IMG/VR virus record: IMGVR_UViG_3300032373_000016
Location: 1-50,485 of that record
Strand: one strand, 5' to 3'
DNA: 50,485 nt
From: a virus
Taxonomy: Duplodnaviria; Caudoviricetes
This document shows, piece after piece, positions 2,204 to 22,177 of the stretch. The notes beneath the pieces are model-generated. The model ran no database searches. It was not told where the DNA came from and worked only from the letters and a program-made list of their open reading frames with translations. The position numbers and the translations under genes are program-made. Numbering within the stretch: the first letter of the stretch is position 1; the number at the start of each line of letters is the position of its first letter.

Positions 2204-2247
2204 TTTTGATTTCTCCTGGTTGCCGGTCTTTGGGGGACCGAGCCTGT

Positions 2248-2276
2248 TACATATGGATTGAATGTGGCTTATTCAA
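2248..2276 (-). promoter_or_regulatory. Sigma70-like promoter for the 2203/int unit
   Basis: TTGAAT-N17-TATGTA on the minus strand, directly followed by a CCCAA-loop hairpin (2224-2240) and an RBS. Confidence 0.55.
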
Positions 2277-2478
2277 GAAAGTCGAACATTGAATAAACCC
2301 GGCGAGACGTGGCTGCGCTCTTTTTCATTTTGGCCACGACTTCTTTGACCTGGTTAAAGTCGTCAGGGTCCATGTCTTTTCGGACGAGTAGATCGATCAG
2401 CTCTGCCCAATATTCCATGAGATCAGCATTGGACTTGTTGAGAGACAGGGAAGCCTGAAGCGGGGATCTATTTGTCAC
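2269..2478 (-). CDS. Hypothetical protein
   Basis: GTG start after GGAGG, overlapping the upstream stop. Confidence 0.6.
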   Translation of the reverse strand: MTNRSPLQASLSLNKSNADLMEYWAELIDLLVRKDMDPDDFNQVKEVVAKMKKSAATSRRVYSMFDFLE

Positions 2479-2758
2479 CGTCACCTCCAGCAGCGAGGAG
2501 CATGGCGGTGAAGACCCGTTCTGCATTTTCAGGATCAGGGTAGCCGCCGAAGCCTGCAAGCACACTGCCAGCCTCGACCATTTCTGCACTCGGCTCCATA
2601 AGCGCTTCTATAAGGGCCTTTTCGGCGGCTTGGGCGCGGGCGATATACATGGCTTTGACCTCATCAGACAGCGCCTGCCACTTAGTGATCGAGGGAAAAT
2701 GGTCACTTTCTGCCTGCCGGATCGCCCTCGCCACTGCCTCTGTTCTAGGATTGGTCAT
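2468..2758 (-). CDS. Hypothetical phage early protein
   Basis: EAVARAI...AL.EPS.EMVEAG...AML pattern typical of small alphaproteobacterial phage proteins; ATGA coupling. Confidence 0.7.
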   Translation of the reverse strand: MTNPRTEAVARAIRQAESDHFPSITKWQALSDEVKAMYIARAQAAEKALIEALMEPSAEMVEAGSVLAGFGGYPDPENAERVFTAMLLAAGGDGDK

Positions 2759-2949
2759 TGGTCGAGTTCCTTTTTCAGGATCGCGATGTAGGCTTGCTTG
2801 ATCATCCACTCAGGGACGGTTCGAAAACAGGCCCATTCATATTGAGGGTCATCCTCGTCGGTCGGCCTGACCCCAGCACCAAGACGGCCATCAGAGCTGA
2901 TTGAAAAGATAGGCGTGCGCCATTCATCGTTCTTTTGAGATTTAGTCAT
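2755..2949 (-). CDS. Hypothetical protein
   Basis: Overlap-coupled ORF in the early operon. Confidence 0.6.
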   Translation of the reverse strand: MTKSQKNDEWRTPIFSISSDGRLGAGVRPTDEDDPQYEWACFRTVPEWMIKQAYIAILKKELDQ

Positions 2950-3133
2950 TGCTCTGCCATCCTTCTGAAAGCCATTCGTCGTGCCAGCGGAAAAAGCGAT
3001 CCGGTAAGCGCTTGGTTAGGCGGTAAAGCCAACCCTCCCACCAATCGAGATAGTCGATCTGACCAGTTCGAACGTAATGGACCAATAGGCCGTCGCGCTT
3101 TTTCGTGACTTTGAAAACTGGTAGCTGTTCCAT
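2942..3133 (-). CDS. Hypothetical Trp-rich protein
   Basis: TGATG coupling to the upstream gene. Confidence 0.6.
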   Translation of the reverse strand: MEQLPVFKVTKKRDGLLVHYVRTGQIDYLDWWEGWLYRLTKRLPDRFFRWHDEWLSEGWQSND

Positions 3134-4284
3134 CAGCTCTTCCTCTCTTGGCTAGTGGGAGGGGTGGTGAGCGCACCGCAAACGTCAGCGATCATCATGG
3201 CGAATATAGCGACTTCGGCGGTATCTAAGCCGCATTGTGCTTTTGATACTCCCATACGGGCGTGCTCATCCATCTGGCGAATGTAAACCTCCATCCCCTC
3301 TCGGAGGTCTTTGGGATTGCAGCTCTTCCAACTACTCTTACTGGTAATCGCGTCACGCTCTCGTAGGCCGGTTTCCATCAGATCGGCGAACGCTTTGACT
3401 TCCGGCCTCCACTCGTCACGCGATGCGAGGGCGGACTTGAGGGCCTCTATGTGCTTATCGCGGTCGCGATAAAAGTAAGTCCCTTCCATGTAGTTCCACG
3501 TGCTCATTTGAGGGTCTTCTAGCCATTCGAGAACTTTTTGCGCGGCCTCTCGCACCAACCCTGACACCGGGGCACTCTGTGTGGCGTGCTCGTAGGCTTG
3601 CTCTGCTTGAGGTTCGATCTCTTTTAAAGCTTCGGCGGCTCTGAAAAAGGCCTCGGCATGATCGATTTTGGAATGAACATAAGGCGTTTCAGTATCGCCT
3701 GAACACGAGGCGCAAACCTCTAATAATTCTTCGTCAAAAGGTGTTACGGGCTCGCCCTCAGAGAGCACCTTCTTGCATTTGGTACAGCGCTCGTATTCGT
3801 GAATGTCGCCTTCCGTGAATTGGCTGATTGTAGCCATGCCGGGGTCGATGCGACCAACCTTGAGCTGGCTTGCGCGCTCAAGATCACCATCTTTGATGGC
3901 GGCGACGTAGGACCATATTGCTGTCGATACTCCCGCGTAGATTTCATCCAGAAGGTATTTGGCTCTATCCACACTCGGTGTGGCGAGGGCTTGGCGGGCG
4001 ATTTCGCGAGACCACCACATATCAAGCGGAAACGTGACAAGCTCATCAGACTTTTCACAGCGCTCGGTGATTGTTGTGTTCGGATCAGCGATCTTCTCCA
4101 ACGCTTCCCGCAGTTCGCTCTCACCACGCGGCTCAATGAGCTTGAGTTCGCCGCTTGAAATCTCGTCAGGCGTGAAAGATGAACGCAATGTGTCGAACGC
4201 CATATTGAACTGCTCAGTGCTATAGTGCGCGTTGAAGTCGTGCTTTCGCACAACAACAAGTAGGGCCTCTCTCAAGCTATCCAT
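3133..4284 (-). CDS. Mosaic Ead/Eaa-like protein with a Zn-ribbon and a C-terminal MazG-like all-alpha domain
   Basis: CTKC...CASC; C-terminal FADLMETGLRERD...W..C...AEVAIFAMMIAD resembles the all-alpha NTP-pyrophosphatase-like domain of phage Ea proteins. Confidence 0.55.
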   Translation of the reverse strand: MDSLREALLVVVRKHDFNAHYSTEQFNMAFDTLRSSFTPDEISSGELKLIEPRGESELREALEKIADPNTTITERCEKSDELVTFPLDMWWSREIARQALATPSVDRAKYLLDEIYAGVSTAIWSYVAAIKDGDLERASQLKVGRIDPGMATISQFTEGDIHEYERCTKCKKVLSEGEPVTPFDEELLEVCASCSGDTETPYVHSKIDHAEAFFRAAEALKEIEPQAEQAYEHATQSAPVSGLVREAAQKVLEWLEDPQMSTWNYMEGTYFYRDRDKHIEALKSALASRDEWRPEVKAFADLMETGLRERDAITSKSSWKSCNPKDLREGMEVYIRQMDEHARMGVSKAQCGLDTAEVAIFAMMIADVCGALTTPPTSQERKS

Positions 4285-4504
4285 TGTTTCGGGCCTCCTT
4301 CATCGCGAACTGGGCCATTCTCATTCCCTCCAGAAAGGCGATACAATAAAGCTGTTGGGGGTTTGATTTGTGCATGTTCCGTTGAATCGTCGGGCCAACC
4401 AGATGCCAAGCATCGCTCATATTCACCCGAAGGCGCTCGAAATGAGTGACGGGAACCAATGGAACTTTGTCAAAGACGGTTATGTATCTCTGCTTCTTAG
4501 GCAT
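4277..4504 (-). CDS. Hypothetical protein
   Basis: AGGAGG RBS before MPKKQ. Confidence 0.65.
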   Translation of the reverse strand: MPKKQRYITVFDKVPLVPVTHFERLRVNMSDAWHLVGPTIQRNMHKSNPQQLYCIAFLEGMRMAQFAMKEARNNG

Positions 4505-5093
4505 CTCGGCCTCCTTCGTCTGAGGGGTGGGTGGCGAGCTTGCCAAACTCAATCAGGAACTCAGAACAAGCTGAAAGCCAGTCTAGCGGTTCAATGGTTT
4601 GTTCGAGTGGTGGGTACTTTGAGAGCCCATTCCACTCATCGGCGGCGCCTGATGTCAGATCACGTTGCTCGGTGCGCAAGAGGCGAAGGTCCGCGCGCTT
4701 GATTTCTGGGTGCTTAATGTCCGATAGCTGCAGGCCAAAACGAGCGCAAACAGCCTCCTCAACGCGGCTCTCAATCACCTTATAGTCGGGCAAAAGCTGT
4801 TTCAGTGGACCAACTATGTCGCCAATATAGGCTTCCGCAGCATCATGCATGAGGGCGGCAAATTTCAGTTCGTCCGGAACAATTGAGCTTACTAATACCG
4901 AGTGCTGAGCAACGGAGTAGAAGTTGAGAGCCTGACCACCGAAGCGCGCAGTCTGCGACAGCCCCTGAGCAATATCCTCAATATGTATCATGTCCGGTTG
5001 CGGGCTCAAAAAGTCGAAGTAGCGACCCGTCTTGAGAATGATTGTTGCGCCAACGACGCCTGTTTTTGACTTTAAAGTTTGTGCGGTGGTCAT
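4497..5093 (-). CDS. HD-domain phosphohydrolase (YfdR/YfbR-like 5'-deoxynucleotidase family)
   Basis: IEDIAQGLS..RFGG...YSVAQHS...ALMHDAAEAYIGD..PLK motifs. Confidence 0.88.
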   Translation of the reverse strand: MTTAQTLKSKTGVVGATIILKTGRYFDFLSPQPDMIHIEDIAQGLSQTARFGGQALNFYSVAQHSVLVSSIVPDELKFAALMHDAAEAYIGDIVGPLKQLLPDYKVIESRVEEAVCARFGLQLSDIKHPEIKRADLRLLRTEQRDLTSGAADEWNGLSKYPPLEQTIEPLDWLSACSEFLIEFGKLATHPSDEGGRDA

Positions 5094-5479
5094 GACCCCG
5101 TCTCCCCTGTGGCTTGGCTCTTATGCCGTTCTGTGAAGGCAGCTGCGGCGCGAAGAAGCCCGAACTCAAGCTCCGTGGCGCAGGTGTCTTCGTCGTCAAG
5201 TCCGTGGATTTCGTCGCGCTCTAGCCAAAAGCGAGCCAGCTTTTCTATCGGCCCAATCACTTCAAGCGCTTTGTCTAGCTCTGCGCGGAGGGTGGCGTTT
5301 TCGTCCAATTGCCGGGAAATGACTTCCCACGCTTCGTTGTCGAAGTCGGCGTCTTTAGTCTGGCCGGTATCACGCAACAGCTCGATTTTGTTTCGAACAA
5401 TCCAATAGATGCGCTTTCGTGCGGCGATCAGTGGCATTTCACCCTCAGCCAATCGCTTCAGTTCGTCTGTATTGGTCAT
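5090..5479 (-). CDS. Hypothetical protein
   Basis: GGGAGA RBS; ATGA coupling downstream. Confidence 0.65.
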   Translation of the reverse strand: MTNTDELKRLAEGEMPLIAARKRIYWIVRNKIELLRDTGQTKDADFDNEAWEVISRQLDENATLRAELDKALEVIGPIEKLARFWLERDEIHGLDDEDTCATELEFGLLRAAAAFTERHKSQATGETGS

Positions 5480-5494
5480 TGGTCGTTGGTCTCC

Positions 5495-5731
5495 CTAATC
5501 GAGAGGGATGGCGCAGAATGAGCCATCTGGTGAAATGGTTTTGCACTGAAGCTTGCTCGGTGCATCGTCCGGATTATCATTGAGCTCATAGTAAATGAGC
5601 GCAGCGACGGCAGCGCCGAACACGCCCCACGCTATGTTCTCGCGATCAATCTCAACGCCATTGATCTTGGCGGGCATAGATTGGCATCCCGCCAAAGCCA
5701 GTGCCGTTGCTGCGATAGCAATTCGTTTCAT
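5495..5731 (-). CDS. Small lipoprotein
   Basis: Signal peptide MKRIAIAATALA-LAGC lipobox plus a second hydrophobic segment; CCAGGAG RBS. Confidence 0.75.
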   Translation of the reverse strand: MKRIAIAATALALAGCQSMPAKINGVEIDRENIAWGVFGAAVAALIYYELNDNPDDAPSKLQCKTISPDGSFCAIPLD

Positions 5732-5814
5732 TTCTTTCTCCTGGGTGATAGCGCCAAGGCCACGCAGAGCGCGACCAAGACGGCAGACATAAGTAACAGC
5801 CCATTCCCCGCCAT
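5728..5814 (-). CDS. 28-aa single-TM peptide (MAGNGLLLMSAVLVALCVALALSPRRKK), not in the ORF track
   Basis: Exactly fills the gap, with TAATG and ATGA overlaps on the two sides. Confidence 0.6.
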   Translation of the reverse strand: MAGNGLLLMSAVLVALCVALALSPRRKK

Positions 5815-6155
5815 TAGGCTGAGCTCGCCATTCCACGTGCGGCGAACTTGATCTCCAAGATCTTTCTAAGCTCAACCATCTCTTCAAACATCAAGCCAAC
5901 GCGGCGCTCGTCTTCGGGATCCACTTCGCCACCCTCGGACATGACGTTGAGCAGTGTAGAAAACACGTGATCGGCGCCAGCCATGTAGGCGCTGAACGCA
6001 CGCTCCTGCTCTTCGAAAGGCTCGTCGACCAGCCCCGTGACTTTCAGAAAGGCGGCAAAGCCAGCCATGACGACATGACCAGATTGGAGCGCGCCAAGCG
6101 TGAGCTTCTGCACGGCCTCTTCGATGATCTTCTCTTTGTTTTTCGCTTCGCCCAT
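5814..6155 (-). CDS. Hypothetical protein
   Basis: ORF in operon context; AF.AYMAGA..VF pattern seen in small phage proteins. Confidence 0.7.
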   Translation of the reverse strand: MGEAKNKEKIIEEAVQKLTLGALQSGHVVMAGFAAFLKVTGLVDEPFEEQERAFSAYMAGADHVFSTLLNVMSEGGEVDPEDERRVGLMFEEMVELRKILEIKFAARGMASSA

Positions 6156-6159
6156 TGGT

Positions 6160-6444
6160 CTAATCCATTTCCATTTCTATAGTGAGTACGCGCACAATCC
6201 GGTTCGGTCTGCCAAGTGCGGTGCCGGTGCGCTCTAGTTGAGTGCGGGCGTCCTGCAGGGACGTAATCTTGCGCTTTGATCGGTTCCAGTAATCCCCGAA
6301 CTTTATATCAACGCGGTAGTGCTCTTTGGTATTCTGAGCGACGGTATCGATGATAGCCTGAGTGATTTCCTGGGCTGTGCGGAACGGCGTGCCTTCTTCT
6401 TCAAGAAGCACATCGTTTACGATTGCGAATATCTCTTCTTTCAT
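6160..6444 (-). CDS. Hypothetical protein
   Basis: ATGA-coupled ORF. Confidence 0.65.
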   Translation of the reverse strand: MKEEIFAIVNDVLLEEEGTPFRTAQEITQAIIDTVAQNTKEHYRVDIKFGDYWNRSKRKITSLQDARTQLERTGTALGRPNRIVRVLTIEMEMD

Positions 6445-6785
6445 GCCGCTTTGACCTTGGTAAGATGTTCGAATTGACCTTTGTAGGTCTTGCTGACGTC
6501 CTGCGGCAGGCAGTGGCGAACACCAATGAGATTGTAGCCAACCTCTGCGGCGAACCGTGAAGCCGCTTCAACATCAGCCCCAAAGGCGCGGAAGGTCAAT
6601 GTGATGTTTGCCCCGTGATAGACAACCATCCATTGCTTGCGTCCTGGATCGCACACGGGCTCTGCAGCGATCTCTTGGTGCATGAGGCGGGCGGTGCGCG
6701 CAGGGTCCGCGATCATGCCACCTTCTCGCACGCCCCGCTTCATGGCCTGAAGCGCCAAGCGCTCAATTTGTTCCTGCGTTAGCAT
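6441..6785 (-). CDS. Hypothetical protein
   Basis: TGATG-coupled ORF. Confidence 0.65.
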   Translation of the reverse strand: MLTQEQIERLALQAMKRGVREGGMIADPARTARLMHQEIAAEPVCDPGRKQWMVVYHGANITLTFRAFGADVEAASRFAAEVGYNLIGVRHCLPQDVSKTYKGQFEHLTKVKAA

Positions 6786-7171
6786 CAGCCTTCCCCCTTT
6801 AAATAGTCGCGCGCTTCGATAACCGTATCAATGAAGTCAACCTCGGGATGCCCCACCTCTTCGATGCGCCAAATTACTCGACCATTGTCTGTTTTACCGG
6901 CGCAATCACCTTTGATATTCGTGAGCCTCTTAAGCAGGTCATCGGCAGTTTTGAGGCGTGCCTTAAGCTTGTCCATGTCCATTTCAATCGCTTCGTCTAT
7001 GCCGTCGCCCTCAAAGCCTTCCTCGGCAAGAATGTTGAATAGGATGTCCGCCGCCTGTTTTAGGTCACGCGTGATATTGCTTTGAGCGCGGCTGGCTTGC
7101 CTGCTACCGGATCGCGCCTCCGCAATGCATCGGCTGATGTCGATCAGTTTCTTTTTAGTCGGCTCTTTCAT
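6785..7171 (-). CDS. Hypothetical protein
   Basis: CCAGGAG RBS; TAATG coupling. Confidence 0.7.
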   Translation of the reverse strand: MKEPTKKKLIDISRCIAEARSGSRQASRAQSNITRDLKQAADILFNILAEEGFEGDGIDEAIEMDMDKLKARLKTADDLLKRLTNIKGDCAGKTDNGRVIWRIEEVGHPEVDFIDTVIEARDYLKGEG

Positions 7172-7341
7172 TATTCTCTCCTGGATTTGTCGAGGCGGCG
7201 TATCTCGCCCCGGCGTTTCTGAATTTCAATTTCGACCTGGTTGTATTGGGCTCGAACCTGGTCCCAGATCATGCCCACCTCTTCGAAAATTATCTCAAGG
7301 TGGGCAATTTCAGATTCAATTTCCTCTTTATTCCTGCTCAC
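7171..7341 (-). CDS. 56-aa coiled-coil-like protein (MSRNKEEIESEIAHLE...), not in the ORF track
   Basis: GTG start overlapping the RecT end; TAATG coupling to the next gene; heptad pattern. Confidence 0.6.
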   Translation of the reverse strand: MSRNKEEIESEIAHLEIIFEEVGMIWDQVRAQYNQVEIEIQKRRGEIRRLDKSRRE

Positions 7342-8557
7342 TTTTCAGATCTTTGGCGAGCTCTTCATAAAGCAAGTTGAATGTGGTCGGCACGCCTTTG
7401 CCATCGTACCAAGAGCACGATTTACAAAGCGTATGAATGGCGTCGAGGTCATCAATGTTGTCGGCTTGGCGCATGGCTTTTTTGCCGGCAAGCTTCGAAG
7501 GAAATGCGTCGGCCATGTCCTCTTCAGGCTCTTCCTTCGGTTCCTCTTTGGGCTTGGCGACGGTCTTTGTTTTCGCCTTCGGCTTCGGAGTATCCTTTTC
7601 TTCTGGTTCCGGCTCCGGTGCCGTGCCCTTGGCTTCTTCAGGAATGTCGTCACCCTCGAGCACGTCAGTTACATCTTCCGCTTCGGCCTCTTGGCTGTGC
7701 GGCTCCTCTTCAACCACTTCGGCTTCAATGGCTTCAGGCTCCGCGACAGTTTTGCCGGTCGAGAGATCCAGAATGTTGCCACTATTGGCAGGCGGTGCCG
7801 GTGGCAGGGTGTTCTCGCTGGTCTCAGATCCTGGAAGCTCATACATTCCATCGTCGCGCTGAATGAGATCGAGCACATCGGTTGAAAGCGGTGCGCGCTT
7901 AGCGAGTCGACGCAGCACTGTCTTCTTCCACATCTCGCTTTCGAAAGGTCCATCCCAAGGCCCGTTCTTGGCGCGAGAAATGTTCTTAACCGCCATGACC
8001 TGATCACGCCCCATAAGCTCGCGATAGATCCCGCCGTCTTTGGTTTTCAGAATAGCGTAACAGGCAATCATCTTGCCGCGGTTCTCAGCAAGCGACGGCC
8101 GGTGCATGATCCGCTCTTCATCGCCAAGCTCATAGTCAAAGTCGTCGGCATCATAGACGACCTGGGCGGACAGAGACGCCACTTCGCCAGACTGGCGCAT
8201 CATCTTCAAGATCCCGCCAATCATCGGCATGTACTGCGCCGTCGCTAGGGACCGGGTGATGTTGTCTGAGCACTTAATCTTTGTGTTGAAGACAACCAGC
8301 GCCGCTTCTCGGCCGTCTGGAAGCAATCCGTCTTTGGCTGCGGCAAGTGCCGACGACCATACTGACTGAGGGTTCTCGCTGACCGCGCGCAGCAAATCTT
8401 GATTGGTGCCAATGGCACTCGATAGGATCCGCTTGAAGCGATCGGGGGATACGTGGGCAGGCAGCGATGCTGCGAACTGTGGAGAGGCTTGCTCGAGCGC
8501 GCCCTTCCAGTTTTGGCGCACGGCCGGCGCCTTATTGGTTTTGGTTAGATCGTTCAC
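7328..8557 (-). CDS. recT: RecT-family single-strand annealing protein with an acidic C-terminal extension
   Basis: LP.HVSPDRF, GLLPDGREAALV, YMPMIGG, GPW..FESEMWKKTVLRRLAKRAPLS; GTG start after AAGGAG. Confidence 0.9.
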   Translation of the reverse strand: MNDLTKTNKAPAVRQNWKGALEQASPQFAASLPAHVSPDRFKRILSSAIGTNQDLLRAVSENPQSVWSSALAAAKDGLLPDGREAALVVFNTKIKCSDNITRSLATAQYMPMIGGILKMMRQSGEVASLSAQVVYDADDFDYELGDEERIMHRPSLAENRGKMIACYAILKTKDGGIYRELMGRDQVMAVKNISRAKNGPWDGPFESEMWKKTVLRRLAKRAPLSTDVLDLIQRDDGMYELPGSETSENTLPPAPPANSGNILDLSTGKTVAEPEAIEAEVVEEEPHSQEAEAEDVTDVLEGDDIPEEAKGTAPEPEPEEKDTPKPKAKTKTVAKPKEEPKEEPEEDMADAFPSKLAGKKAMRQADNIDDLDAIHTLCKSCSWYDGKGVPTTFNLLYEELAKDLKSEQE

Positions 8558-8570
8558 TGTATTCTCCTTG

Positions 8571-10457: not shown

Positions 10458-10480
10458 GGCTTCTCCTGGATTGAGGCTTC

Positions 10481-10509: not shown

Positions 10510-10725
10510 GAAAAATGCACCAAAATGATACTTCCCTAAAAAACGTGCCGCTTGAAATTAACCCTTAGCTGTGCTCTGAACACCGCTTACGGTTTTCCAA
10601 ATACCGGGCTGGGCGTCATGCGACATATCAAATAAAATCCATCCCGTAACGAGTTGGCGGCAGGGCGTCACCTCCTACACTCCTGTCTTCGGGCACCCTG
10701 CCACTGCCCCAAGAAAGGAAAATAA

Positions 10726-14568: not shown

Positions 14569-14570
14569 TC

Positions 14571-14609: not shown

Positions 14610-14631
14610 GCGAGAAACGCATGGGGCTGTT

Positions 14632-15512: not shown

Positions 15513-15889
15513 TGGGAAACCTGCCAACCAGACGCGTGTTCACGCACTTAGACGTTCTCAAGACAATGGAAGAGGGCAGGTCAATAAAAGGTCTGACGAT
15601 GGAGCAAGTGTCAGAACTCGCCGGCGCTCCGGATCGATATTACAACAAGGTCGCGATGGGCCTTGAGCATGAAAATGTTCGAAGCCTTCGTCGTAGGCTC
15701 CGCGGCCGACCGGATCCAAAGGGACAGAGCGCGGTTCGATATCCAATGCGAATGGAAACCCTTATGGCCTGGCTGGCGGAGTCGTGCGGCTATGCGCTGG
15801 TGATGATGCCAATTGAAGAGGCCGCTCAAATCATCGAGCCAGATCCGGTGACACATCTGACTTATCCAAAGCTAGAAGACGTCGCATAG
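15512..15889 (+). CDS. XRE-like HTH protein, candidate late regulator
   Basis: R..KGLTMEQVSELAGAPDRYYNKV. Confidence 0.6.
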   Translation: MGNLPTRRVFTHLDVLKTMEEGRSIKGLTMEQVSELAGAPDRYYNKVAMGLEHENVRSLRRRLRGRPDPKGQSAVRYPMRMETLMAWLAESCGYALVMMPIEEAAQIIEPDPVTHLTYPKLEDVA

Positions 15890-15899
15890 AGGAAGAGAA

Positions 15900-16178
15900 A
15901 TGAGTAAGAACGATCCAAAATACAATTTCATTGGTGGTCACATCATCAACGAAGCAAGCGGCCTACCTGTACCGGATGATGAGCCTTGCATGGTGTTTCG
16001 CGCTCGGGACATATGGGCGGTCCACGCCATCGAAAGCTATCTCAGCGATATTGAATTAGGTATCGGTGAAAAGGATACGCCGCACGTCACAGCGGTTAAG
16101 GAGCGGATTGAGGCGTTCAGGCGGTTTGCACGAGATAATCGCGACCGAATGAAAGAACCCGACACAGAGCTAGCCTAA
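15900..16178 (+). CDS. Conserved phage hypothetical protein
   Basis: PDDEP..VFRARD..A...I..Y...MKEPD motif; AGAGGAAG RBS. Confidence 0.75.
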   Translation: MSKNDPKYNFIGGHIINEASGLPVPDDEPCMVFRARDIWAVHAIESYLSDIELGIGEKDTPHVTAVKERIEAFRRFARDNRDRMKEPDTELA

Positions 16179-16211
16179 CCCACCGTGTCAGCGCCTTTAA
16201 TGCGGCGCATA

Positions 16212-16250
16212 GAAAAACCCCAGCACTTTCAATAATGAAAGGTCTGGGGC
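16212..16250 (-). terminator. Intrinsic terminator
   Basis: GCCCCAG-AC-CTTTCA-TTAT-TGAAAG-TG-CTGGGGT followed by TTTTCT on the minus strand, at the convergence of two operons. Confidence 0.75.
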
Positions 16251-16310
16251 TTGCGGTTTTCCCTCTCGGGGGGCTGGGGGGGCTGATGGGTCCGAAAGGA
16301 TTGCCCGCCC
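16212..16310 (-). ncRNA. Candidate ~100-nt C-rich sRNA
   Basis: Promoter TTGCAC-N16-TACATG (16342-16315), 5' hairpin, unpaired CAGCCCC repeats and an intrinsic terminator (16250-16212); no credible ORF. Confidence 0.55.
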
Positions 16311-16344
16311 GATCCATGTAATCAAGTTTGCATAATGTGCAAGT

Positions 16345-16626
16345 TTACAGTCCGTAAGTTTCTCGGATCTTATCAAGCGCCGCTGCCTGGCGGGTGATCT
16401 CGGTGAGGCGCCAGCCAAACAAAGCGCGAGCCTTATCGATGGGCATCCCGTCTCGCAAGTAGGTGCCAACCGCATTTCGCTGAACGCCAAGGATCTTCGC
16501 GATCTCATATTGTTTCAGACCTGGTGCGACGGCATTGAGAAAGTTGGTGACTTCGTAGTCTTCCAGCCGCTCTTTGTCAGACAGGTCAATGTGATGTTTT
16601 AAGGTCGGTTTTTTAGAGGTTGTCAT
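16345..16626 (-). CDS. Small HTH protein, candidate repressor
   Basis: GLKQYEIAKILGVQRNAVGTYLRDG HTH. Confidence 0.7.
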   Translation of the reverse strand: MTTSKKPTLKHHIDLSDKERLEDYEVTNFLNAVAPGLKQYEIAKILGVQRNAVGTYLRDGMPIDKARALFGWRLTEITRQAAALDKIRETYGL

Positions 16627-16741
16627 ATGAATTTCCAATGCCTATATGGGGAAGTGTTAGTGCACTCCTGGTGACTGACGCAAACAGCTCGAAGCCCGCG
16701 CATTTGGGCCCTCATTGAGGGAAGCGCGGGCTTCATTGCAT

Positions 16742-16909
16742 TTAGGCTTTTGGTTTCGCAGCTTGCTTGGTCGCTTTGTTCACATTGGTGATCAGTTCGA
16801 CCGCTTCAGCGAGCGTTACGTTGAATTGCTCCATTCCATCTGCAAGCTGCGTCATGAGAGACAGCGTGTCTTTCGCGAGGGTCTGAAGTTTCGCTTCTTC
16901 ATTAGCCAT
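16742..16909 (-). CDS. 55-aa helical protein (MANEEAKLQTL...), not in the ORF track
   Basis: ACCAGGAG RBS, ATG and open frame to TAA. Confidence 0.7.
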   Translation of the reverse strand: MANEEAKLQTLAKDTLSLMTQLADGMEQFNVTLAEAVELITNVNKATKQAAKPKA

Positions 16910-16924
16910 TTAGTTTACTCCTGG

Positions 16925-17104
16925 TTAGGGTCCGTCCATCAAGAATTTAAATCCTGCTACAGCCAGTAGGAGAAATACGGCCAAGAACGGCGCCATTCCA
17001 CCTAAGCTGTAAATCCACTGCACAGCTAGAAAGATGCTAGTCACAAGCGCGGTGCCCATCAAAAGCACTGCGCATAATATGCAGAGATATCGGAAAAAAT
17101 GCAT
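16925..17104 (-). CDS. Small two-TM membrane protein
   Basis: MHFFRYL...; two hydrophobic helices; CCAGGG RBS. Confidence 0.65.
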   Translation of the reverse strand: MHFFRYLCILCAVLLMGTALVTSIFLAVQWIYSLGGMAPFLAVFLLLAVAGFKFLMDGP

Positions 17105-17202
17105 TGTGGTTGTTTCCCTGGTGTGATGCCCAACAGCGGGCACCGGGAAACCCGGCTCGCTATTGCGAGGCCGGGCACCAGGAAACTCAATTGTGCGGCA
17201 GA

Positions 17203-17424
17203 CTATTCGTAGTATTCTTTCGAGTAGCGAACCTTCCAGCCGCCATGCAGGCGAAGGCGGGACCGACGAGCTTTTCGTTGAAGGCGGGCAGCATCTCGCC
17301 GCTGTTGTCGTGTAAGCGGCTTTGCTTTGGTCTTCTTGCTCTCGGCATCTTCGGGCATCTCCTTGGCCTTCTTGCGGAAGCCTGGGATGATATGCGCGTA
17401 AGCGCCTAGTCGTGGATCTTTCAT
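17203..17424 (-). CDS. Small basic protein with an arginine-rich motif (candidate RNA-binding/antiterminator)
   Basis: KPLTRQQRRDAARLQRKARRSRLR; TAGGAG RBS. Function is inferred. Confidence 0.6.
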   Translation of the reverse strand: MKDPRLGAYAHIIPGFRKKAKEMPEDAESKKTKAKPLTRQQRRDAARLQRKARRSRLRLHGGWKVRYSKEYYE

Positions 17425-17500
17425 GTGTGCTCCTATTTTGGCACCCAAAAACCCCGCTCACCGGAGTGAGGCGGGGCATCCCAAGTGGGATTAAATAGGA

Positions 17501-18058
17501 TCAGTGAGTGGCGGCTGTCGGTTTAATCAGATCAACTGCCTTTTCAAGATCAACGTTATGCCCGTTCTTTTTGGGCGTGAGGGGAACGAGGGTCTGTTTA
17601 TATGCCAAGCTAGCGTAATTTTGCTGTTGGCCCTCCACGGTGCCTTCCTGTCGATCCTGTGGCTTTTCGGTTTCTTCGGCCTCATAGCTATCATTGATAA
17701 CTTCAGGGCCAAAGATCGTGATCAGACCAAGGCCCAATCCTGCAAGCCACAACTGCCAGCCTGCCCAACCGGGGAACAACGTATTCCCCAAGCCTTTGTG
17801 GGCCCAATAAGCGATCAAGACAAACAGCGTGAACTGGATCCCAATGATCGGGTATTGTCGCCAGTTCTTCCGCTTCCGGTGTGTCAGTGTGAATTCCAAC
17901 AGGGACGCTTGAAGCATCGAGGCCATGATCAGCACAAAAACAAGGGTGAGTGTGACCAGCTCTGACGAGACGTCTTCGGTCTTACTGAAAAACCCCATAA
18001 GGATCTCAACGCCAACAAGACCAACCATGCCGATAACGGCAAAGTGTTTTCTTTTCAT
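17501..18058 (-). CDS. Four-TM membrane protein, first gene after a promoter
   Basis: Four hydrophobic segments plus a polar tail; CCAGGAG RBS. Confidence 0.75.
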   Translation of the reverse strand: MKRKHFAVIGMVGLVGVEILMGFFSKTEDVSSELVTLTLVFVLIMASMLQASLLEFTLTHRKRKNWRQYPIIGIQFTLFVLIAYWAHKGLGNTLFPGWAGWQLWLAGLGLGLITIFGPEVINDSYEAEETEKPQDRQEGTVEGQQQNYASLAYKQTLVPLTPKKNGHNVDLEKAVDLIKPTAATH

Positions 18059-18096
18059 TCAATTCTCCTGGGTTTGCGCATTGGGAGCGCACGGTT

Positions 18097-18124
18097 TAAA
18101 TACTAAAAATATCGAAAAATGCAA
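18097..18124 (-). promoter_or_regulatory. Leftward sigma70-like promoter
   Basis: TTGCAT-N16-TATTTA, followed by a CCCAA-loop hairpin (18075-18091) and an RBS. Confidence 0.55.
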
Positions 18125-18207
18125 GAAAAAAGTGCATTGGCGCTCAAGATAATTGCCAAACCCTAGCAAATTGATAATGTCCACGCTGGTTTATCGAAGG
18201 GCTTACC

Positions 18208-18741
18208 ATGTCAAGCAGAGCATCCCGCGCCGTAGAGATTGCGCGATTAGAAAAAGAGCTTCAAGACGCGAATTACTACAAGGAAAAATACAGGCGCCGC
18301 TTGATTGAGCTGGATCCTGACTATCTGAAAAAGGAACGGCCTACGCCTGTCGCCAAATACAGCAAAGCGCTGATTGATCGTGTAATGCTTATGGGCGATC
18401 AGGGCATGGCAGAGGATCAATGGGTTGCTGAGTTCGGATTGTCCCGGCGAACCTGGAACGAATGGAAAGCCCAATATCCCGAGCTCGTTGAAGCGGTTGA
18501 TCGTGGTTTGCAGCGCGCCCTGGCGTGGTGGCACGAGTCAGCGCGGCACGCGAACGAGACAGGAAACAGCAAATTTGGGATGTCGATTTACAAACAGCGC
18601 GTGGCTGAGATTGAGGGCGGCATGACTGACCTGGCCGCTGGTGACAATGGTGACGCAAGCCGCCTGGTCTTGCTGGATTTGAGAGAAGACCCTGAAGGCG
18701 AAATTCCTACACCGGGTTTCAACGAGCAGGACGCAGCATAG
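18208..18741 (+). CDS. Terminase small subunit
   Basis: P..KY....D.V...G..G......AEFGLSRRTWNEWK.QYPEL.EAV......AWW HTH pattern of P22/Sf6-like small terminases. Confidence 0.7.
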   Translation: MSSRASRAVEIARLEKELQDANYYKEKYRRRLIELDPDYLKKERPTPVAKYSKALIDRVMLMGDQGMAEDQWVAEFGLSRRTWNEWKAQYPELVEAVDRGLQRALAWWHESARHANETGNSKFGMSIYKQRVAEIEGGMTDLAAGDNGDASRLVLLDLREDPEGEIPTPGFNEQDAA

Positions 18742-18786
18742 CATGTTCATTTTCTCGGCCACAAATGAGGCGGAAAAAATGAACAC

Positions 18787-18823
18787 AAAAAAAGCCCGGC
18801 ACAATGGCCGGGCTGTTTCGTTT
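18787..18823. terminator. Bidirectional intrinsic terminator
   Basis: A-tract, AGCCCGGC-acaatg-GCCGGGCT, then a T-rich tail, between convergent genes. Confidence 0.8.
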
Positions 18824-18833
18824 GGTTGGTAGT

Positions 18834-19028
18834 TTACTCCCACGAAGCGTGTCCGTCTCGCCCGTAGGTCCGCTCCTCTACCGATGAGAAGTAGCGGTTA
18901 AGATCATCGGTGTTGAGCCAGTCTTGCTCGATTTGCTCTTCGATCTGTTCATCAGTCAGGCCGTCTTCGACTTCAACTGATTTCGTATAGGTCACGATTT
19001 CTGTGACGTGGTATTGAACCTTGGCCAT
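18834..19028 (-). CDS. DpnD/PcfM-like small acidic protein
   Basis: Y.VTEIVTYTKSVEVE....EQIEEQIEQDW pattern; TAGGAG RBS. Confidence 0.55.
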   Translation of the reverse strand: MAKVQYHVTEIVTYTKSVEVEDGLTDEQIEEQIEQDWLNTDDLNRYFSSVEERTYGRDGHASWE

Positions 19029-19098
19029 GATTTCTCCTAGTGCTGGCACGCCAAAACCCGGCCTGCGCTAGCAGGTCCGGGCAAGGTGTTTGGTGCGG

Positions 19099-19347
19099 CT
19101 ACTTGAGCGCGTCGAGGTGACGAGCAAGGGCCTGGTCGAACATGAGGTCCGCGACATACGCCGCCGCGTCCAGCATCGCTTCATAGCTGGCTTTGGTCAT
19201 GCTCGTTGTGAGGTAGAGGTGTTGAAGCTCTTCCCCGCGTTGGCTGAGATACATTTCGCATTCGGCTTCAGCCCTCTGCGTCGCGATATCCTCATTCGTA
19301 GGAACAGGGATAATCTCAGCGGTGATGTTTGCGAATGAAAGTTGCAT
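19099..19347 (-). CDS. Hypothetical protein
   Basis: ACCAGGAG RBS. Confidence 0.7.
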   Translation of the reverse strand: MQLSFANITAEIIPVPTNEDIATQRAEAECEMYLSQRGEELQHLYLTTSMTKASYEAMLDAAAYVADLMFDQALARHLDALK

Positions 19348-19362
19348 GGGTCTTCTCCTGGT

Positions 19363-19554
19363 CTAGGCGAAATGAATTCGCGCATATCGTTTATTCAACA
19401 CTGACATTTCGACTTCCTTAAAAATCAAAACAATGTCGTTAGACGCTTCAGGCTTCAACGTGCCTTTGTCGTCCAGATAACGAGCGAGGTGCAACGACCA
19501 TTCGGCCGCTGCAGTGTCTCGCATAATCTTCGCTTCGGTACGGTTAAAGAACAT
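19363..19554 (-). CDS. Hypothetical protein
   Basis: ORF overlapping the upstream stop. Confidence 0.55.
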   Translation of the reverse strand: MFFNRTEAKIMRDTAAAEWSLHLARYLDDKGTLKPEASNDIVLIFKEVEMSVLNKRYARIHFA

Positions 19555-19738
19555 TGCTCGTCGCCTTTCGTTTAGGGAAAAGCGGTCGCGCAATGTGATA
19601 CGCAAAGGCCGCTGCAATACCGCTGCCAATGTAGGCAGCCATTGAAACTAGCTCTGCACCAATCGAGGCGAGAAGAAACGCACACGCCAAGGCCGACAAA
19701 GCGAACACAACGCGTGCAAAGATAATAATAGCTTTCAT
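19544..19738 (-). CDS. Small two-TM membrane protein
   Basis: CCCAGGAG RBS; hydrophobic. Confidence 0.65.
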   Translation of the reverse strand: MKAIIIFARVVFALSALACAFLLASIGAELVSMAAYIGSGIAAAFAYHIARPLFPKRKATSNVL

Positions 19739-19858
19739 GCTATCTCCTGGGATGGATAGGACTTGATTGGGCCACATGGACGCCCCGCGTTAGCGGGCAA
19801 GGCGCCCGTGAGACCCAATCATAAATAAGTTGATCCGATAGGTGAGCCCCGAAGGGCT

Positions 19859-20098
19859 CTAGGCGGTAAGATCCGCCAGTAGTTCGTCATCAGTGTAGTT
19901 GACCTTGGCGCGGCGTTGTTTCCGCACGGTATAACCGGCCTCTTTCAGCTGATGCTTGACCGATGGCCAGGCGCTTCGCGGGATGTTGCAATCCGTGAAG
20001 TGCTCGTGAATCTCAGTCCAAATAGCCTCTGCTTGAGGGTTGTTCGGATAGAGTGACACGTAAAAGCCAAGGTCGATGAAGTTAAAATCGGTCTTCAT
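19859..20098 (-). CDS. Hypothetical protein
   Basis: TAAGGA RBS; followed by the hairpin GAGCCC-TTCGG-GGCTC. Confidence 0.65.
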   Translation of the reverse strand: MKTDFNFIDLGFYVSLYPNNPQAEAIWTEIHEHFTDCNIPRSAWPSVKHQLKEAGYTVRKQRRAKVNYTDDELLADLTA

Positions 20099-20224
20099 GA
20101 TTGGTGTCCTTATGTTGCTCACCAATCGAACCAACTTAAAATCCTAAATTGTCAAACAGCTTGCCAACTTGGGAGCTGGCACCTCAAAACCCGCCCCGGT
20201 CCATGACCGAGACGGGCGCTGAGT

Positions 20225-20341
20225 TTATCGCTTAGGTATCGCCTGGTTTATAACCGTTGATACGAAGGCGAGGATGACAACCGCTGACCCAAAGGTCGAA
20301 ATGATTGTCAGGGCGTCTTGTGCGAGCTGCTGGCTATCCAT
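20225..20341 (-). CDS. 38-aa single-TM peptide (MDSQQLAQDALTIISTFGSAVVILAFVSTVINQAIPKR), not in the ORF track
   Basis: Overlaps the stop of the upstream peptide; one hydrophobic helix. Confidence 0.55.
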   Translation of the reverse strand: MDSQQLAQDALTIISTFGSAVVILAFVSTVINQAIPKR

Positions 20342-20444
20342 CGTGCCGCTCGTCCCACAACTGAGACACCCAAGCACCAGATTCGCAAGCGAGCCAAGTG
20401 CAGACGCAAACTAGGCCGAGAATGGCCCAACCAATTGCTGACAT
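20334..20444 (-). CDS. 36-aa single-TM peptide (MSAIGWAILGLVCVCTWLACESGAWVSQLWDERHDG), not in the ORF track
   Basis: ACCAGGAG RBS directly after a promoter and a CCCAA hairpin. Confidence 0.65.
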   Translation of the reverse strand: MSAIGWAILGLVCVCTWLACESGAWVSQLWDERHDG

Positions 20445-20490
20445 GTAGTCTCCTGGTTTAATCGCCGGCATTTGGGAGCCGACAGGACAT

Positions 20491-20519
20491 CATATACACC
20501 CGCAACTGATCGATTGCAA
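20491..20519 (-). promoter_or_regulatory. Leftward sigma70 promoter
   Basis: TTGCAA-N17-TATATG on the minus strand, followed by hairpin 20464-20483. Confidence 0.65.
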
Positions 20520-21100
20520 GAAATAAATACACAAAAGGCGCATTTAGGCCACAATACAGGGCAATTCCCCACAAACTATCCCACCGCTACAGCTCAAAAG
20601 ACTGTAAAGATAGCTATATATAAACATACACTGATCACGCGCAGCGTGAACAACACTAGACTGAAACCAATAACAACAAACCACATCAACGCAGGGCTCA
20701 CGCAAGCTAAGCCTACACGCACCTACTCAACGCTTAAGCACACTCACTCGCACCAGCATCAGGCGCAACACGCTCCAACACACACCAACACGCTCAAGCC
20801 TGGACGAATTAAGAAAAAGAAAAAAGCTTGTGTTTTTCACTCGCGTTCGCCGGTTGGATGTCCCCGCGCGTGCTTATAGTGGGCGCAAATCGATGTGAAC
20901 TGATTGCGTATCAGCTACAAATCCCCATGAATGCAGGCCATCGAGACGATAGTTTGTGACAAACTGACGAAAAAAGGCCCCCCTGGGGGGTGGATCGCTA
21001 TTTTCGGGCGGGGGGAAAAATTCGCGGCCGGCTTCCAGGTCGATATATATATCCCCCCCGATTTTAAAAAAGGTAGTGTACTGCCTCAAATGTGTTATGA
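20520..21100. other. Largest non-coding region; candidate packaging-initiation/terminus site
   Basis: A/C-rich left part, a cluster of palindromes and G/C homopolymers, lying between divergent units and between terS and terL. Confidence 0.5.
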
Positions 21101-21141
21101 GATATTTTCCGAAGGCCCAATCTTCGGACCAGGAGAAGAGC

Positions 21142-21510
21142 ATGAAGAATTCTAAACAGGCATTTAGTGCGCGACAGCTTGTCGATCTTTATTCGGAGCT
21201 GGACGAAAGCAATCGCTATTGGGCGGATATGTTCCGCGATGAGGGAGAGTTGCGGATTTACGATTCATTTATTCACAATCCGATTTACGCTCCCGAGCAC
21301 GATAAGGCGAAGTGGTTGCACGCGGTTTCGATGGATAAAGACAATCGGACTATTCGGGTTCGTGCGACTTATCCTGATGGTACGGTTCGATTTTGGGATT
21401 GGGGCTTTGAGTTTTTTGAGGCAACAATTTACATTGGCCCATCGAAGCTGAGCTACATGCTTGGCTTCTATCGTGCGGCTTACCATCATCCTCAGCGTGA
21501 GCTGGATTAG
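21142..21510 (+). CDS. Hypothetical protein
   Basis: ACCAGGAG RBS before MKNSKQ. Confidence 0.7.
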   Translation: MKNSKQAFSARQLVDLYSELDESNRYWADMFRDEGELRIYDSFIHNPIYAPEHDKAKWLHAVSMDKDNRTIRVRATYPDGTVRFWDWGFEFFEATIYIGPSKLSYMLGFYRAAYHHPQRELD

Positions 21511-21678
21511 CGCTAGGCCAAAAAATTTTGATTGTTGCGCGAGATCTGTTATCGGGTTGTTGCGGCTTCATGAGAGCCGCTCCCTTTTGTAGAGTGTTCT
21601 GGCTTTGGCGGATAAACCCAATCCACACGTCGCTGAAGTCAGTTCACTCTACGTTTAGTTTTAAGGAGCTGGGAAAAC

Positions 21679-22137: not shown

Positions 22138-22177
22138 AAAAATTTTCTTTTTTTCGAGATCGTGATACTGCGGCTTC

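What the first reader, a model, noticed from the sequence alone, without database searches (positions are those of the whole stretch)
2224..21624. Family of hairpins with a conserved CCCAA loop at transcript 5' ends: candidate boxB/nut-like system
Seen, always read on the transcribed strand: CGGTC-CCCCAAA-GACCG (2240-2224, -), TGCGC-TCCCAAT-GCGCA (18091-18075, -), GTCGGC-TCCCAAAT-GCCGGC (20483-20464, -), TGCCAGC-TCCCAA-GTTGGCA (20181-20162, -) and TCCGAAG-GCCCAAT-CTTCGGA (21108-21128, +). Weaker copies are CGGT-TTTCCAAAT-ACCG (10590-10606, +), an unpaired CCCAAAT inside hairpin 16692-16733 (-), ACCCAAT at 21617 (+) and ACCCAAT at 24042 (+). The stems are unrelated in sequence but all pair, while the loop is conserved. 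Three copies begin within about 7 nt of a predicted -10 box, and four are directly followed by a CCAGGAG RBS. Established: lambda/P22 N proteins recognise boxB loops on nascent early transcripts. Inference: this is the binding site of one phage or host RNA-binding factor coordinating the early and integrase transcripts, with a loop unlike the GNRA-like lambdoid boxB.
Basis: partly seen in the sequence, partly recalled or inferred. Interest (0 to 1): 0.85.

Follow-up and report, generated by a model that had tools for sequence, protein, structure and literature searches.

The report
Phage gene-start hairpins with CCAA loop
A small group of marine temperate phages puts the same little RNA hairpin, always showing CCAA in its loop, just in front of the ribosome-binding sites of their accessory genes, which points to an undescribed phage-specific control signal whose exact job is still open.

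Summary
The window is a complete temperate phage genome. Five hairpins with unrelated stems and a CCCAA loop lie at the stated places, and four abut a CCAGGAGA ribosome-binding site. Hairpins with CCCAA loops are not over-represented genome-wide. The signal lies in their position and their conservation.

Two relatives have the same architecture with a CCAA loop core: a Henriciella prophage and one IMG/VR contig. A covariance model finds 13 copies in 124 kb, all sense and 5' of gene starts. All 6 stem pairs covary. The 3.4-Mb host genome has copies only inside the prophage.

Each copy follows a promoter-like element or a terminator-like hairpin. One conserved copy abuts an 11-mer identical to the host rrn leader boxA.

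- Best reading (0.4): a cassette-start RNA operator for an unidentified phage factor acting on translation or mRNA fate. It is analogous to SAS/ESAS of Cluster K mycobacteriophages.
- Main rival (0.27): a boxB-type antitermination site.

Earlier notes of this scan report hairpin-plus-host-boxA leaders in another Henriciella prophage.

The parts
2223..2241 (-). Hairpin W1: stem TCGGTC/GACCGG, loop CCCCAAA. It heads the 98-aa ORF plus integrase unit.
   Evidence: MFE -9.6 kcal/mol; found by model R1 (34.1 bits; it was a training row)
2212..2219 (-). Extended Shine-Dalgarno CCAGGAGA, 9 nt before the ATG at 2203
2248..2276 (-). Promoter-like TTGAAT-N17-TATGTA, ending 6 nt before hairpin W1
   Evidence: my regex; not listed by the E. 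coli-consensus scan
18075..18091 (-). Hairpin W2: TGCGC/TCCCAAT/GCGCA, before the 185-aa membrane protein gene
   Evidence: z -3.1. R1 hit of 21.1 bits, not a training row. Orthologous copies lie in L004 (TGCGCC/ACCCAAG/GGCGCA) and L003.
18064..18071 (-). CCAGGAGA Shine-Dalgarno of the 185-aa gene (ATG at 18058)
18097..18124 (-). Promoter-like TTGCAT-N16-TATTTA, ending 5 nt before W2. Like elements stand before the orthologous hairpins in L003 and L004.
20463..20484 (-). Hairpin W3: TGTCGGC/TCCCAAAT/GCCGGCG, before a 36-aa membrane peptide gene
   Evidence: z -3.2; R1 hit of 19.8 bits, not a training row
20449..20456 (-). CCAGGAGA Shine-Dalgarno (ATG 5 nt downstream)
20491..20519 (-). Promoter-like TTGCAA-N17-TATATG, ending 6 nt before W3
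20185..20217 (-). Terminator-like GC-rich hairpin plus UUUU, 3 nt before hairpin W4
   Evidence: fold. Not listed by the terminator scan, which needs 5 T.
20162..20181 (-). Hairpin W4: TGCCAGC/TCCCAA/GTTGGCA, standing in the boxB position before boxA
   Evidence: Orthologues in L004 and L003 have extended, covarying stems.
20150..20160 (-). GCTGTTTGACA: identical to the rrn-leader boxA 11-mer of the Henriciella host genome, 1 nt after hairpin W4
21108..21128 (+). Hairpin W5: TCCGAAGG/CCCAA/TCTTCGGA, before the first rightward gene (122 aa)
   Evidence: z -3.2; R1 hit of 17.4 bits, not a training row
21129..21136 (+). CCAGGAGA Shine-Dalgarno (ATG at 21142)
16691..16734 (-). Composite element: an 11-bp outer stem, an inner hairpin, and an unpaired CCCAAAU (16708-16702) on the 3' side. 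It lies upstream of the 97-aa HTH gene.
   Evidence: z -5.2. The orthologue in L003 shows GCCAAGU in the same place.
16681..16688 (-). GCTGTTTG: the first 8 nt of the boxA 11-mer, 2 nt after the composite element
19045..19082 (-). Degenerate module: a terminator-like hairpin, then GTGCCAGC running straight into AGGAGA with no CCAA hairpin
17440..17477 (-). Degenerate module: terminator, then GTGCC and AGGAG without a hairpin, before the Arg-rich 73-aa ORF
21589..21652 (+). Long hairpin with ACCCAAU in an 18-nt loop, after the terminator at 21562-21580 and before the AAGGAG of gene 21679. Membership is uncertain.

Best explanation
The hairpins are a phage-lineage-specific, cis-acting RNA module that marks the start of accessory-gene cassettes. 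The module is a stable 5-12-bp stem showing single-stranded CCAA, followed within 1-8 nt by an unusually uniform Shine-Dalgarno, (C)CAGGAG(A).

It is the first thing transcribed after a promoter, or the first thing after the terminator-like hairpin of the preceding cassette. I read it as an operator. A trans-acting factor specified by the phage would bind the CCAA loop and, through its position next to the SD, set ribosome access to the downstream cistron. The base-paired 5' edge would also protect that mRNA segment.

**Shown:** the structure, the covariation, the loop conservation, the sense orientation, the position at gene starts, and the absence from host DNA.

**Inferred:** that the element acts as RNA, that a factor exists, and that the output is translation or mRNA fate.

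The single copy per phage that is fused to a host-type boxA probably also feeds Nus-factor-dependent read-through.
For: 1. **Position.** 13 of 16 copies in three phages lie 1-8 nt 5' of CAGGAG. 13 of 19 CCAA-N6-24-CAGGAG pairs are hairpin loops, against 0 of 8 in host DNA.
2. **One copy per cistron where there is an intergenic gap.** 6 of 6 gene starts in L004 7.4-10.7 kb have one, as do most in L003 8.0-11.0 kb.
3. **Variable downstream genes.** The downstream genes are mostly unrelated between the phages, while the module is kept.
4. **Structure.** 98.6% of cells are paired and 6 of 6 pairs show double changes. 32 covarying cells compare with 9.7 +/- 2.2 in shuffles (0 of 500 as high), and slid controls pair only 34-46%.
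5. **Model search.** Model R1, built from 6 copies, recovers 7 further copies. Nothing else exceeds 14.3 bits in 124 kb.
6. **Phage-specific.** R2 finds only the 4 prophage copies in the 3.4-Mb host genome, and the next hit scores 16 bits. Of 151 genomes of the family, 7 others have single hits at chance level.
7. **The SD is also phage-specific.** CCAGGAG followed by ATG occurs 11 times in the 50-kb window and 9 times in the 48-kb prophage, but only 4 times in 328 kb of host DNA.
8. **A published analogue.** SAS/ESAS of Cluster K mycobacteriophages are SD-containing repeats at the starts of non-structural genes. About half carry upstream inverted repeats, and they are absent from the host (PMC3203893, passages read).
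Against: - No RNA-binding protein was identified. About 40 early ORFs gave no RNA-binding domain in Pfam or PHROGs.
- Three copies per set are not next to an SD, because boxA or a long spacer intervenes. The composite element shows CCAA 20-60 nt upstream of the start.
- Degenerate modules without the hairpin still precede intact genes (19045-19082 and 17440-17477). The hairpin is therefore not indispensable.
- The copies were partly found with structure-aware tools, so the pair counts lean towards the structure.
- Only three genomes could be compared.
- Transcription start sites are inferred from promoter-like spacing that the generic scan does not confirm.
- There are no expression data.
Confidence: 0.4

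Rival explanations
1. BoxB-type antitermination site. An N-like phage protein binds the CCAA loop on the nascent RNA. Together with host Nus factors, it makes RNA polymerase read through the terminator-like hairpins that separate the cassettes.
For: - The hairpins are the first transcribed element after promoter-like sites.
- The units contain terminator-like hairpins directly followed by genes with no room for a promoter. One is the terminator at 21562-21580, between the first rightward gene and the following genes.
- One conserved copy per phage is followed after 0-1 nt by G(C/T)TGTTTGACA. This is identical to the rrn-leader boxA of three genomes of the host family, where a small hairpin also precedes it by 1-2 nt.
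- Of 7 such 11-mers in the host genome, only the rrn leader and the prophage copy have that hairpin.
- Known boxB loops differ between phages: P22 has GACAA and phi21 has CUAACC (PMC12550061, passages read). A new loop type is therefore not excluded.
Against: - There is one copy per cistron rather than one per operon.
- 13 of 16 copies abut the SD.
- The recombination and replication operons have none.
- boxA accompanies only 1 of 5-6 copies per phage.
- No conserved arginine-rich protein was found. The candidate at 17203-17424 is missing at that place in both relatives.
- A hairpin lying 3' of a terminator cannot affect that terminator.
- The U-tracts are short (3-5 U), so read-through may need no factor.
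Confidence: 0.27
2. RNA-processing and stability punctuation. A nuclease cuts in the short single-stranded stretch between the terminator-like hairpin and the CCAA hairpin. Each cassette mRNA then carries a protective hairpin at both ends. The loop is the nuclease's mark, or the mark of a protecting protein.
For: - The spacing is fixed at 3-5 nt between the U-tract and the hairpin in 6 modules of three phages.
- The hairpin sits at the predicted +1 in promoter-linked copies.
- The idea that 5'-terminal stem-loops stabilise bacterial mRNAs is recalled, not taken from a call.
Against: No candidate nuclease was found, there are no RNA data, and loop conservation is not needed for protection alone.
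Confidence: 0.12
3. DNA-level element. It would be a recombination or boundary sequence for cassette exchange, or a protein-binding inverted repeat.
For: - The cargo genes differ between the phages.
- Metagenome contigs lack a cassette next to the 20181 module. Joints run 19763 to 20143 and 19821 to 20142.
- GTGCC recurs at the junctions.
Against: - The arms are variable and the centre is asymmetric, which does not suit a dimeric DNA binder.
- The orientation is strictly sense.
- The compensatory changes keep pairing, including G-U pairs, which form only in RNA.
- The observed joints do not fall in the hairpins.
Confidence: 0.06
4. Chance, or a by-product of base composition near ribosome-binding sites.
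For: The genome-wide count of CCCAA-loop hairpins is not exceptional.
Against: See, and the conservation in two relatives at 40-76% protein identity.
Confidence: 0.02

Closest known systems
[quoted passage not shown]
   Same: - A phage-specific conserved sequence containing AGGAG lies a few nt before the start codons of a subset of non-structural genes from different families, in one orientation.
- It is virtually absent from the host genome.
- About half of the sites carry an upstream inverted repeat.
- The function is still untested (passages read).
   Different: - In ESAS the 17-bp arms are conserved and the spacer varies, and the authors saw little support for RNA pairing.
- Here the arms vary and covary while the loop is conserved.
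- The host phylum differs, and there is no sequence similarity.
Lambda/P22/phi21 nut sites (boxA plus boxB, N protein)
   Same: - A small hairpin with a conserved loop lies early in phage transcripts.
- Stems differ between sites.
- Units contain terminators.
- One copy lies next to a boxA.
   Different: - The loop is CCAA-type, not a GNRA-like pentaloop or the UMAC-type hexaloop.
- The order is hairpin then boxA, as in rrn.
- There are 5-6 copies, mostly touching an SD.
- There is none in the main early operons.
- No N-like protein was found.
rrn operon leader antiterminator (boxB hairpin, boxA, boxC; NusB/S10 and partners)
   Same: The module at 20181-20150 has a hairpin followed after 1 nt by the exact 11-mer found 232-244 nt before the 16S genes of three genomes of the host family. 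There too a hairpin precedes it.
   Different: - The host hairpin is GGGC/UCCG/GCCC, not a CCAA loop.
- boxC was not looked for.
- Only one of the copies per phage has boxA.
Translational operator hairpins of phages (T4 gp43 operator, RNA-phage coat protein operators; recalled, not from a call)
   Same: A small hairpin with a sequence-specific loop lies beside the ribosome-binding site and is read by a phage protein.
   Different: Those are single sites for autogenous control or for one target. Here there are many sites on unrelated genes, and the protein is unknown.

Membership tests
Lambda-type nut site (boxA + boxB + N) | boxB hairpin with a GNRA-like pentaloop or the phi21-type hexaloop | tested here: not met
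   The loops are NNCCAAN or NCCAAG. P22 has GACAA and phi21 has CUAACC, per PMC12550061. The lambda loop is recalled.
Lambda-type nut site (boxA + boxB + N) | boxA next to the hairpin | tested here: inconclusive
   It is present at 1 of 6 window copies (20160-20150), and an 8-of-11 version follows the composite element. It is absent at the SD-linked copies.
Lambda-type nut site (boxA + boxB + N) | A small arginine-rich N-like protein encoded by the phage | tested here: inconclusive
   The only plausible ORF (17203-17424) has no counterpart at that place in L003 or L004. The Arg-rich ORF scan was swamped by alternative frames.
Lambda-type nut site (boxA + boxB + N) | Causes terminator read-through | not testable with these tools
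   This needs reporters or Term-seq.
rrn-type antitermination leader | boxA sequence of the host | tested here: met
   The 11-mer is identical to the rrn leaders of G001, G021 and G037. This holds for the 20181 module only.
rrn-type antitermination leader | Hairpin directly 5' of boxA | tested here: met
   The gap is 0-1 nt in the three phages and 1-2 nt in the host leaders. Of 7 such 11-mers in G001, only these two have the hairpin.
rrn-type antitermination leader | boxC and binding of NusB/S10 | not tested
   Neither was examined.
SAS/ESAS-like start-associated elements | A conserved SD-containing sequence at many gene starts that is rare in the host | tested here: met
   CCAGGAG followed by ATG occurs at 11 of 13 sites in the window and 9 of 14 in the prophage, against 4 of 49 in 328 kb of host DNA.
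SAS/ESAS-like start-associated elements | Sequence match to GGGATAGGAGCCC or to the 17-bp inverted repeats | tested here: not met
   The motif is different. This is an analogy only.
Any Rfam family | Match at the gathering score | tested here: not met
   There were 0 matches in the whole window. At E up to 10 there were 10 matches in 16000-21700, and none falls on a hairpin.
5'-terminal stabilising stem-loop | Stem begins within a few nt of the transcript's 5' end | not testable with these tools
   Promoter-like hexamers end 4-7 nt before 6 of 9 non-terminator-linked copies and 1 nt before a seventh (B4). No TSS data exist.

The most novel reading that the evidence does not exclude
The phage lineage runs a plug-and-play cassette system. 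Every exchangeable accessory gene is bracketed by a terminator-like hairpin and a CCAA-loop hairpin joined to a private Shine-Dalgarno. One phage-encoded RNA-binding protein of no known family reads the CCAA loop and couples read-through of cassette boundaries with translation of the next gene. Host rrn boxA is recruited at one boundary. This would be a new kind of RNA operator regulon in phages of marine Alphaproteobacteria, and a structural counterpart that could explain the unexplained SAS/ESAS elements.
Probability: 0.15. Interest if true: 0.8.

Novelty: new variant of a known kind. Interest (0 to 1): 0.58.

Why it matters
Gene-start-associated repeats in phages (SAS/ESAS) have lacked a mechanism since 2011. 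Here the equivalent element has a clear RNA signature: covarying stems, a four-letter loop core conserved in all 16 copies, and absence from the host. That makes it directly testable with loop mutants and pull-downs.

It also shows a temperate phage of Hyphomonadaceae copying the host rrn boxA with its preceding hairpin geometry. This extends Nus-factor hijacking to a group where phage gene control is essentially unstudied. The modules bracket variable cargo genes, so they may explain how such cassettes stay expressible after exchange.

Tried and rejected
**Searches for relatives**
- Megablast of 17000-24000 against cultured phages found no match. TerL reaches at most 31% identity to any cultured phage.
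- Single-protein scans of viral contigs found nothing.
- The alignment-based scans of viral contigs and metagenome contigs returned only one IMG/VR contig, and the genome-contig scan only the Henriciella prophage.
- Pattern scans for the hairpin-boxA junction and for boxA gave that same contig plus chance matches in AT-rich phages.
- The 185-aa protein has 10 homologues in the large protein collection.
- The 55-aa protein found only itself.
- A more distant prophage (G223, TerL 46%) has no such motif.

**RNA databases and data**
- Rfam and tRNA scans gave nothing on the hairpins.
- No RNA holder was listed among the sequencing runs.
- Contigs of three runs cover hairpins 18091 and 20181 with none of the listed differences inside them. 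However, 26 differences were not shown.

**Ideas rejected**
- Loop pairing with the SD (CUCC with GGAG): seen in only 3 of 5 window copies and in no L004 copy.
- Pseudoknot with UUGG of the preceding U-tract: present in 4 of 6 terminator-linked copies, but the 0-1 nt left in the loop is too short. This is inference.
- Pairing with 16S rRNA: the host 16S has UUGGG or CUUGG only at positions 1017 and 1069, and none near the 3' end.
- A trans RNA with UUGG in the AC-rich spacer at 20500-20880: only three CCAA on the plus strand, by eye.
- Anticodon-loop, T-loop and ANTAR hexaloop mimicry: recalled consensus features (U33; U54/psi55; A1/G4) are not met.
- A host-wide regulon: rejected. Three genomes share one host gene with a GCCAAA hairpin before CAGGAGG, and I take that as coincidence.
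- Literature: searches found no description of such a motif. Supplementary files were not consulted.
- Not used: structure prediction, complex prediction, the protein atlas and the representatives search.

Full report
**What the window is**

The window is a complete virus record with 127-bp direct terminal repeats. It encodes the following:
- an integrase (876-1943, -)
- an exonuclease and a RecT-like protein on the leftward early arm
- RusA, a DnaB-like helicase and a replication initiator on the rightward arm

Its large terminase is at most 31% identical to any cultured phage. Megablast finds no cultured relative.

**The observation**

Each is the minimum-free-energy fold. Four are followed within 1-7 nt by CCAGGAGA and an ATG.

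A simple count does not make them remarkable. Among 909 hairpins with at least 5 Watson-Crick pairs, CCCAA is in 9 loops, and several other 5-mers reach 10. CCAA-loop hairpins are also no denser in the window than in host DNA: 11 in 50 kb against 61 in 328 kb. The signal is therefore positional.

**Relatives**

The 185-aa membrane protein behind hairpin 18091 has 10 homologues in the large protein collection. DNA was obtained for two relatives:
- a prophage in a Henriciella MAG (L003; genome G001), collinear with the window from the integrase to the tail genes
- a 15.9-kb IMG/VR contig (L002, L004, L005, L006 and L036 are all this contig)

Both carry the same architecture.
- L004 has six copies in 3.3 kb, with loops CCCAA, ACCCAAG, AACCAAG and ACCAAG.
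- L003 has five, with loops AGCCAAG, GCCAA(G) and ACCAAG. It also has a composite element.

The loop core CCAA is present in all 16 copies. The flanks differ by phage: CCCAA(A/T) in the window and N(C)CCAAG in the relatives.

Copies that precede orthologous genes keep the loop while their stems change. Examples are TGCCAGC/GTTGGCA, TGCCAGCGCTT/GGGCGTTGGCA and TGCCAGCGT/GCGCTGGCA. The copies that occupy the same place behind the first leftward promoter (20484 in the window, 7420 in L004, 8054 in L003) have wholly different stems.

**Statistics**

- Of 48 AGGAG-plus-start sites in the three phages, 33 have a hairpin within 42 nt upstream, and 13 of those carry CCAA. The best unrelated 4-mer reaches 3.
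- In 327,742 bp of host DNA outside the prophage, 88 such sites give 40 hairpins, and 1 has CCAA, 24 nt away from the SD.
- In a test without structural preselection, 13 of 19 CCAA-N6-24-CAGGAG pairs in the phages are hairpin loops, against 0 of 8 in host DNA.
- A covariance model built from 6 copies recovers 7 others. It gives 13 hits of at least 17.4 bits in 124,049 bases, and the next hit scores 14.3 bits. All 13 are sense and 5' of a start.
- On their alignment, 98.6% of cells pair and all 6 pairs show changes on both sides. The 32 covarying cells compare with 9.7 +/- 2.2 in shuffles (0 of 500 as high), and slid controls pair 34-46%.

One caveat applies to the last point. The alignment is fitted to the model, and the copies were found with structure-aware methods.

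**Specificity**

The rebuilt model finds only the four SD-linked prophage copies in the whole 3.4-Mb host genome, at 32.5-36.6 bits. The next hit scores 16 bits. Only 150 of 1542 first-look candidates were scored.

Of 151 genomes of the family, 7 others have one hit each at 24.5-26.4 bits. That is about the number expected at E 0.05 per genome. Three of them are one orthologous host gene, and the rest lie in coding DNA or have oversized loops.

A more distant prophage (G223, TerL 46%) has no such element. Rfam has no matching family.

**Context**

- Promoter-like elements: 7 of 9 non-terminator-linked copies are preceded by TTGNNN-N16/17-TANNNN, whose second hexamer ends 4-7 nt before the stem in six of them and 1 nt before it in the seventh (B4). 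The generic E. coli-type scan does not report these.
- Terminator-like hairpins: six copies start 3-5 nt after the short U-tract of a GC-rich hairpin, which leaves no room for a promoter.
- Degenerate modules: two window modules keep the terminator and GTGCC but have lost the hairpin (19045-19082 and 17440-17477).
- The SD: CCAGGAG is itself phage-specific. CCAGGAG followed by ATG occurs 11 times in the window, 9 times in the prophage and 4 times in 328 kb of host DNA.
- Variable cargo: the genes behind the hairpins are mostly unrelated between the phages. Only the 185-aa, 55-aa and TerS-like proteins are shared in that region.
- Cassette indel: contigs of two metagenome runs lack a cassette beside the 20181 module.

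**The boxA link**

Hairpin 20181-20162 is followed after 1 nt by GCTGTTTGACA. The orthologous copies in L003 and L004 are followed by GCTGTTTGACA and GTTGTTTGACA.

The rrn leaders of three genomes of the host family carry exactly these 11-mers, 232-244 nt before 16S. Each is preceded by a GGGC/UCCG/GCCC hairpin. Of 7 such 11-mers in the host genome, only the rrn leader and the prophage copy have a hairpin directly in front.

So this one module copies the boxB-boxA layout of the host rrn leader. Earlier notes of this scan had flagged the boxA-like sequence here, and hairpin-plus-host-boxA leaders in another Henriciella prophage. I used these as leads and tested the boxA identity myself.

**Mechanism**

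The conserved single-stranded CCAA on varying stems, shown in a hairpin loop or in the internal loop of the composite element, argues for a trans-acting reader.

Several features fit a cassette-start operator acting on translation or mRNA fate. These are the one-per-cistron distribution, the tight link to a private SD, and the restriction to accessory, integrase-side and first-rightward units. The closest published parallel is SAS/ESAS of Cluster K mycobacteriophages, whose role is still untested (PMC3203893 and PMC12699233, passages read).

Other features keep the boxB-type antitermination reading alive. These are the terminator-rich units, the position at the transcript start and the boxA fusion. 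Known boxB loops also differ between phages (PMC12550061, passages read).

No RNA-binding domain or conserved arginine-rich protein was found.

My estimates are:
- operator on translation or mRNA fate: 0.40
- antitermination: 0.27
- processing punctuation: 0.12
- DNA-level element: 0.06
- chance: 0.02

The remainder is left for mechanisms I have not thought of.

**Verdict**

This is a real, conserved and undescribed RNA hairpin family of a small phage lineage. It is a new variant of known kinds of phage leader signals, and its function is unproven.

Noticed in passing
window 1-127 and 50359-50485: There is an exact 127-bp direct terminal repeat, and the record is a complete genome.
   Followed up: yes
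window, 13 CCAGGAG sites (e.g. 2219, 5744, 7184, 10469, 16924, 18071, 19361, 19750, 20456, 21129): The phage uses a private extended Shine-Dalgarno, CCAGGAG(A), at early and accessory gene starts. It is about 18 times denser per kb than in host DNA, and it recalls the start-associated sequences of Cluster K mycobacteriophages.
   Followed up: partly
window 19764-20142: The cassette (79/91-aa gene plus flanks) is missing in contigs of two metagenome runs. The joints run 19763 to 20143 with 11 other letters between, and 19821 to 20142. This is natural cassette gain or loss next to the hairpin-boxA module.
   Followed up: partly
window 18208-18741 versus 24614-26245: The small-terminase-like gene is separated from the large terminase by about 5.9 kb of accessory cassettes and a non-coding stretch. 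In the distant prophage G223 the two genes are adjacent.
   Followed up: partly
window 20500-20880; L004 7000-7300: An A/C-rich stretch (plus strand) of about 400 nt has no convincing ORF and lies upstream of the first leftward promoter. A compositionally similar stretch is present in the relative. Its role is unknown.
   Followed up: no
window 17104-17424: Two small genes (an Arg-rich 73-aa ORF and a 59-aa membrane protein) are inserted between the 185-aa gene and the 55-aa gene, relative to both relatives. The hairpin that precedes the 55-aa gene in the relatives is lost here.
   Followed up: partly
window 19099-19347; L004 7458-7684; L003 8493-8722: By eye, small acidic proteins of 75-82 aa share a Y..L......D.M.D...A pattern. 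They may form a fourth family conserved in the hairpin region. BLASTP at 1e-4 did not link the window copy.
   Followed up: no
L045, L046, L047 (host genomes G021, G037, G023): One orthologous host gene, whose product begins MKAAVLREPNKPL, has a GGCTGC/GCCAAA/GCAGCC hairpin 6 nt before CAGGAGG. It is the only host look-alike found.
   Followed up: partly
window 36589-44430: A 2613-aa ORF lies in the tail region and is 59% identical to its prophage counterpart. It was not characterised.
   Followed up: no
window 21562-21580: A terminator-like hairpin plus T-tract lies directly after the first rightward gene and before the remaining rightward genes. The layout recalls a gated late operon.
   Followed up: partly
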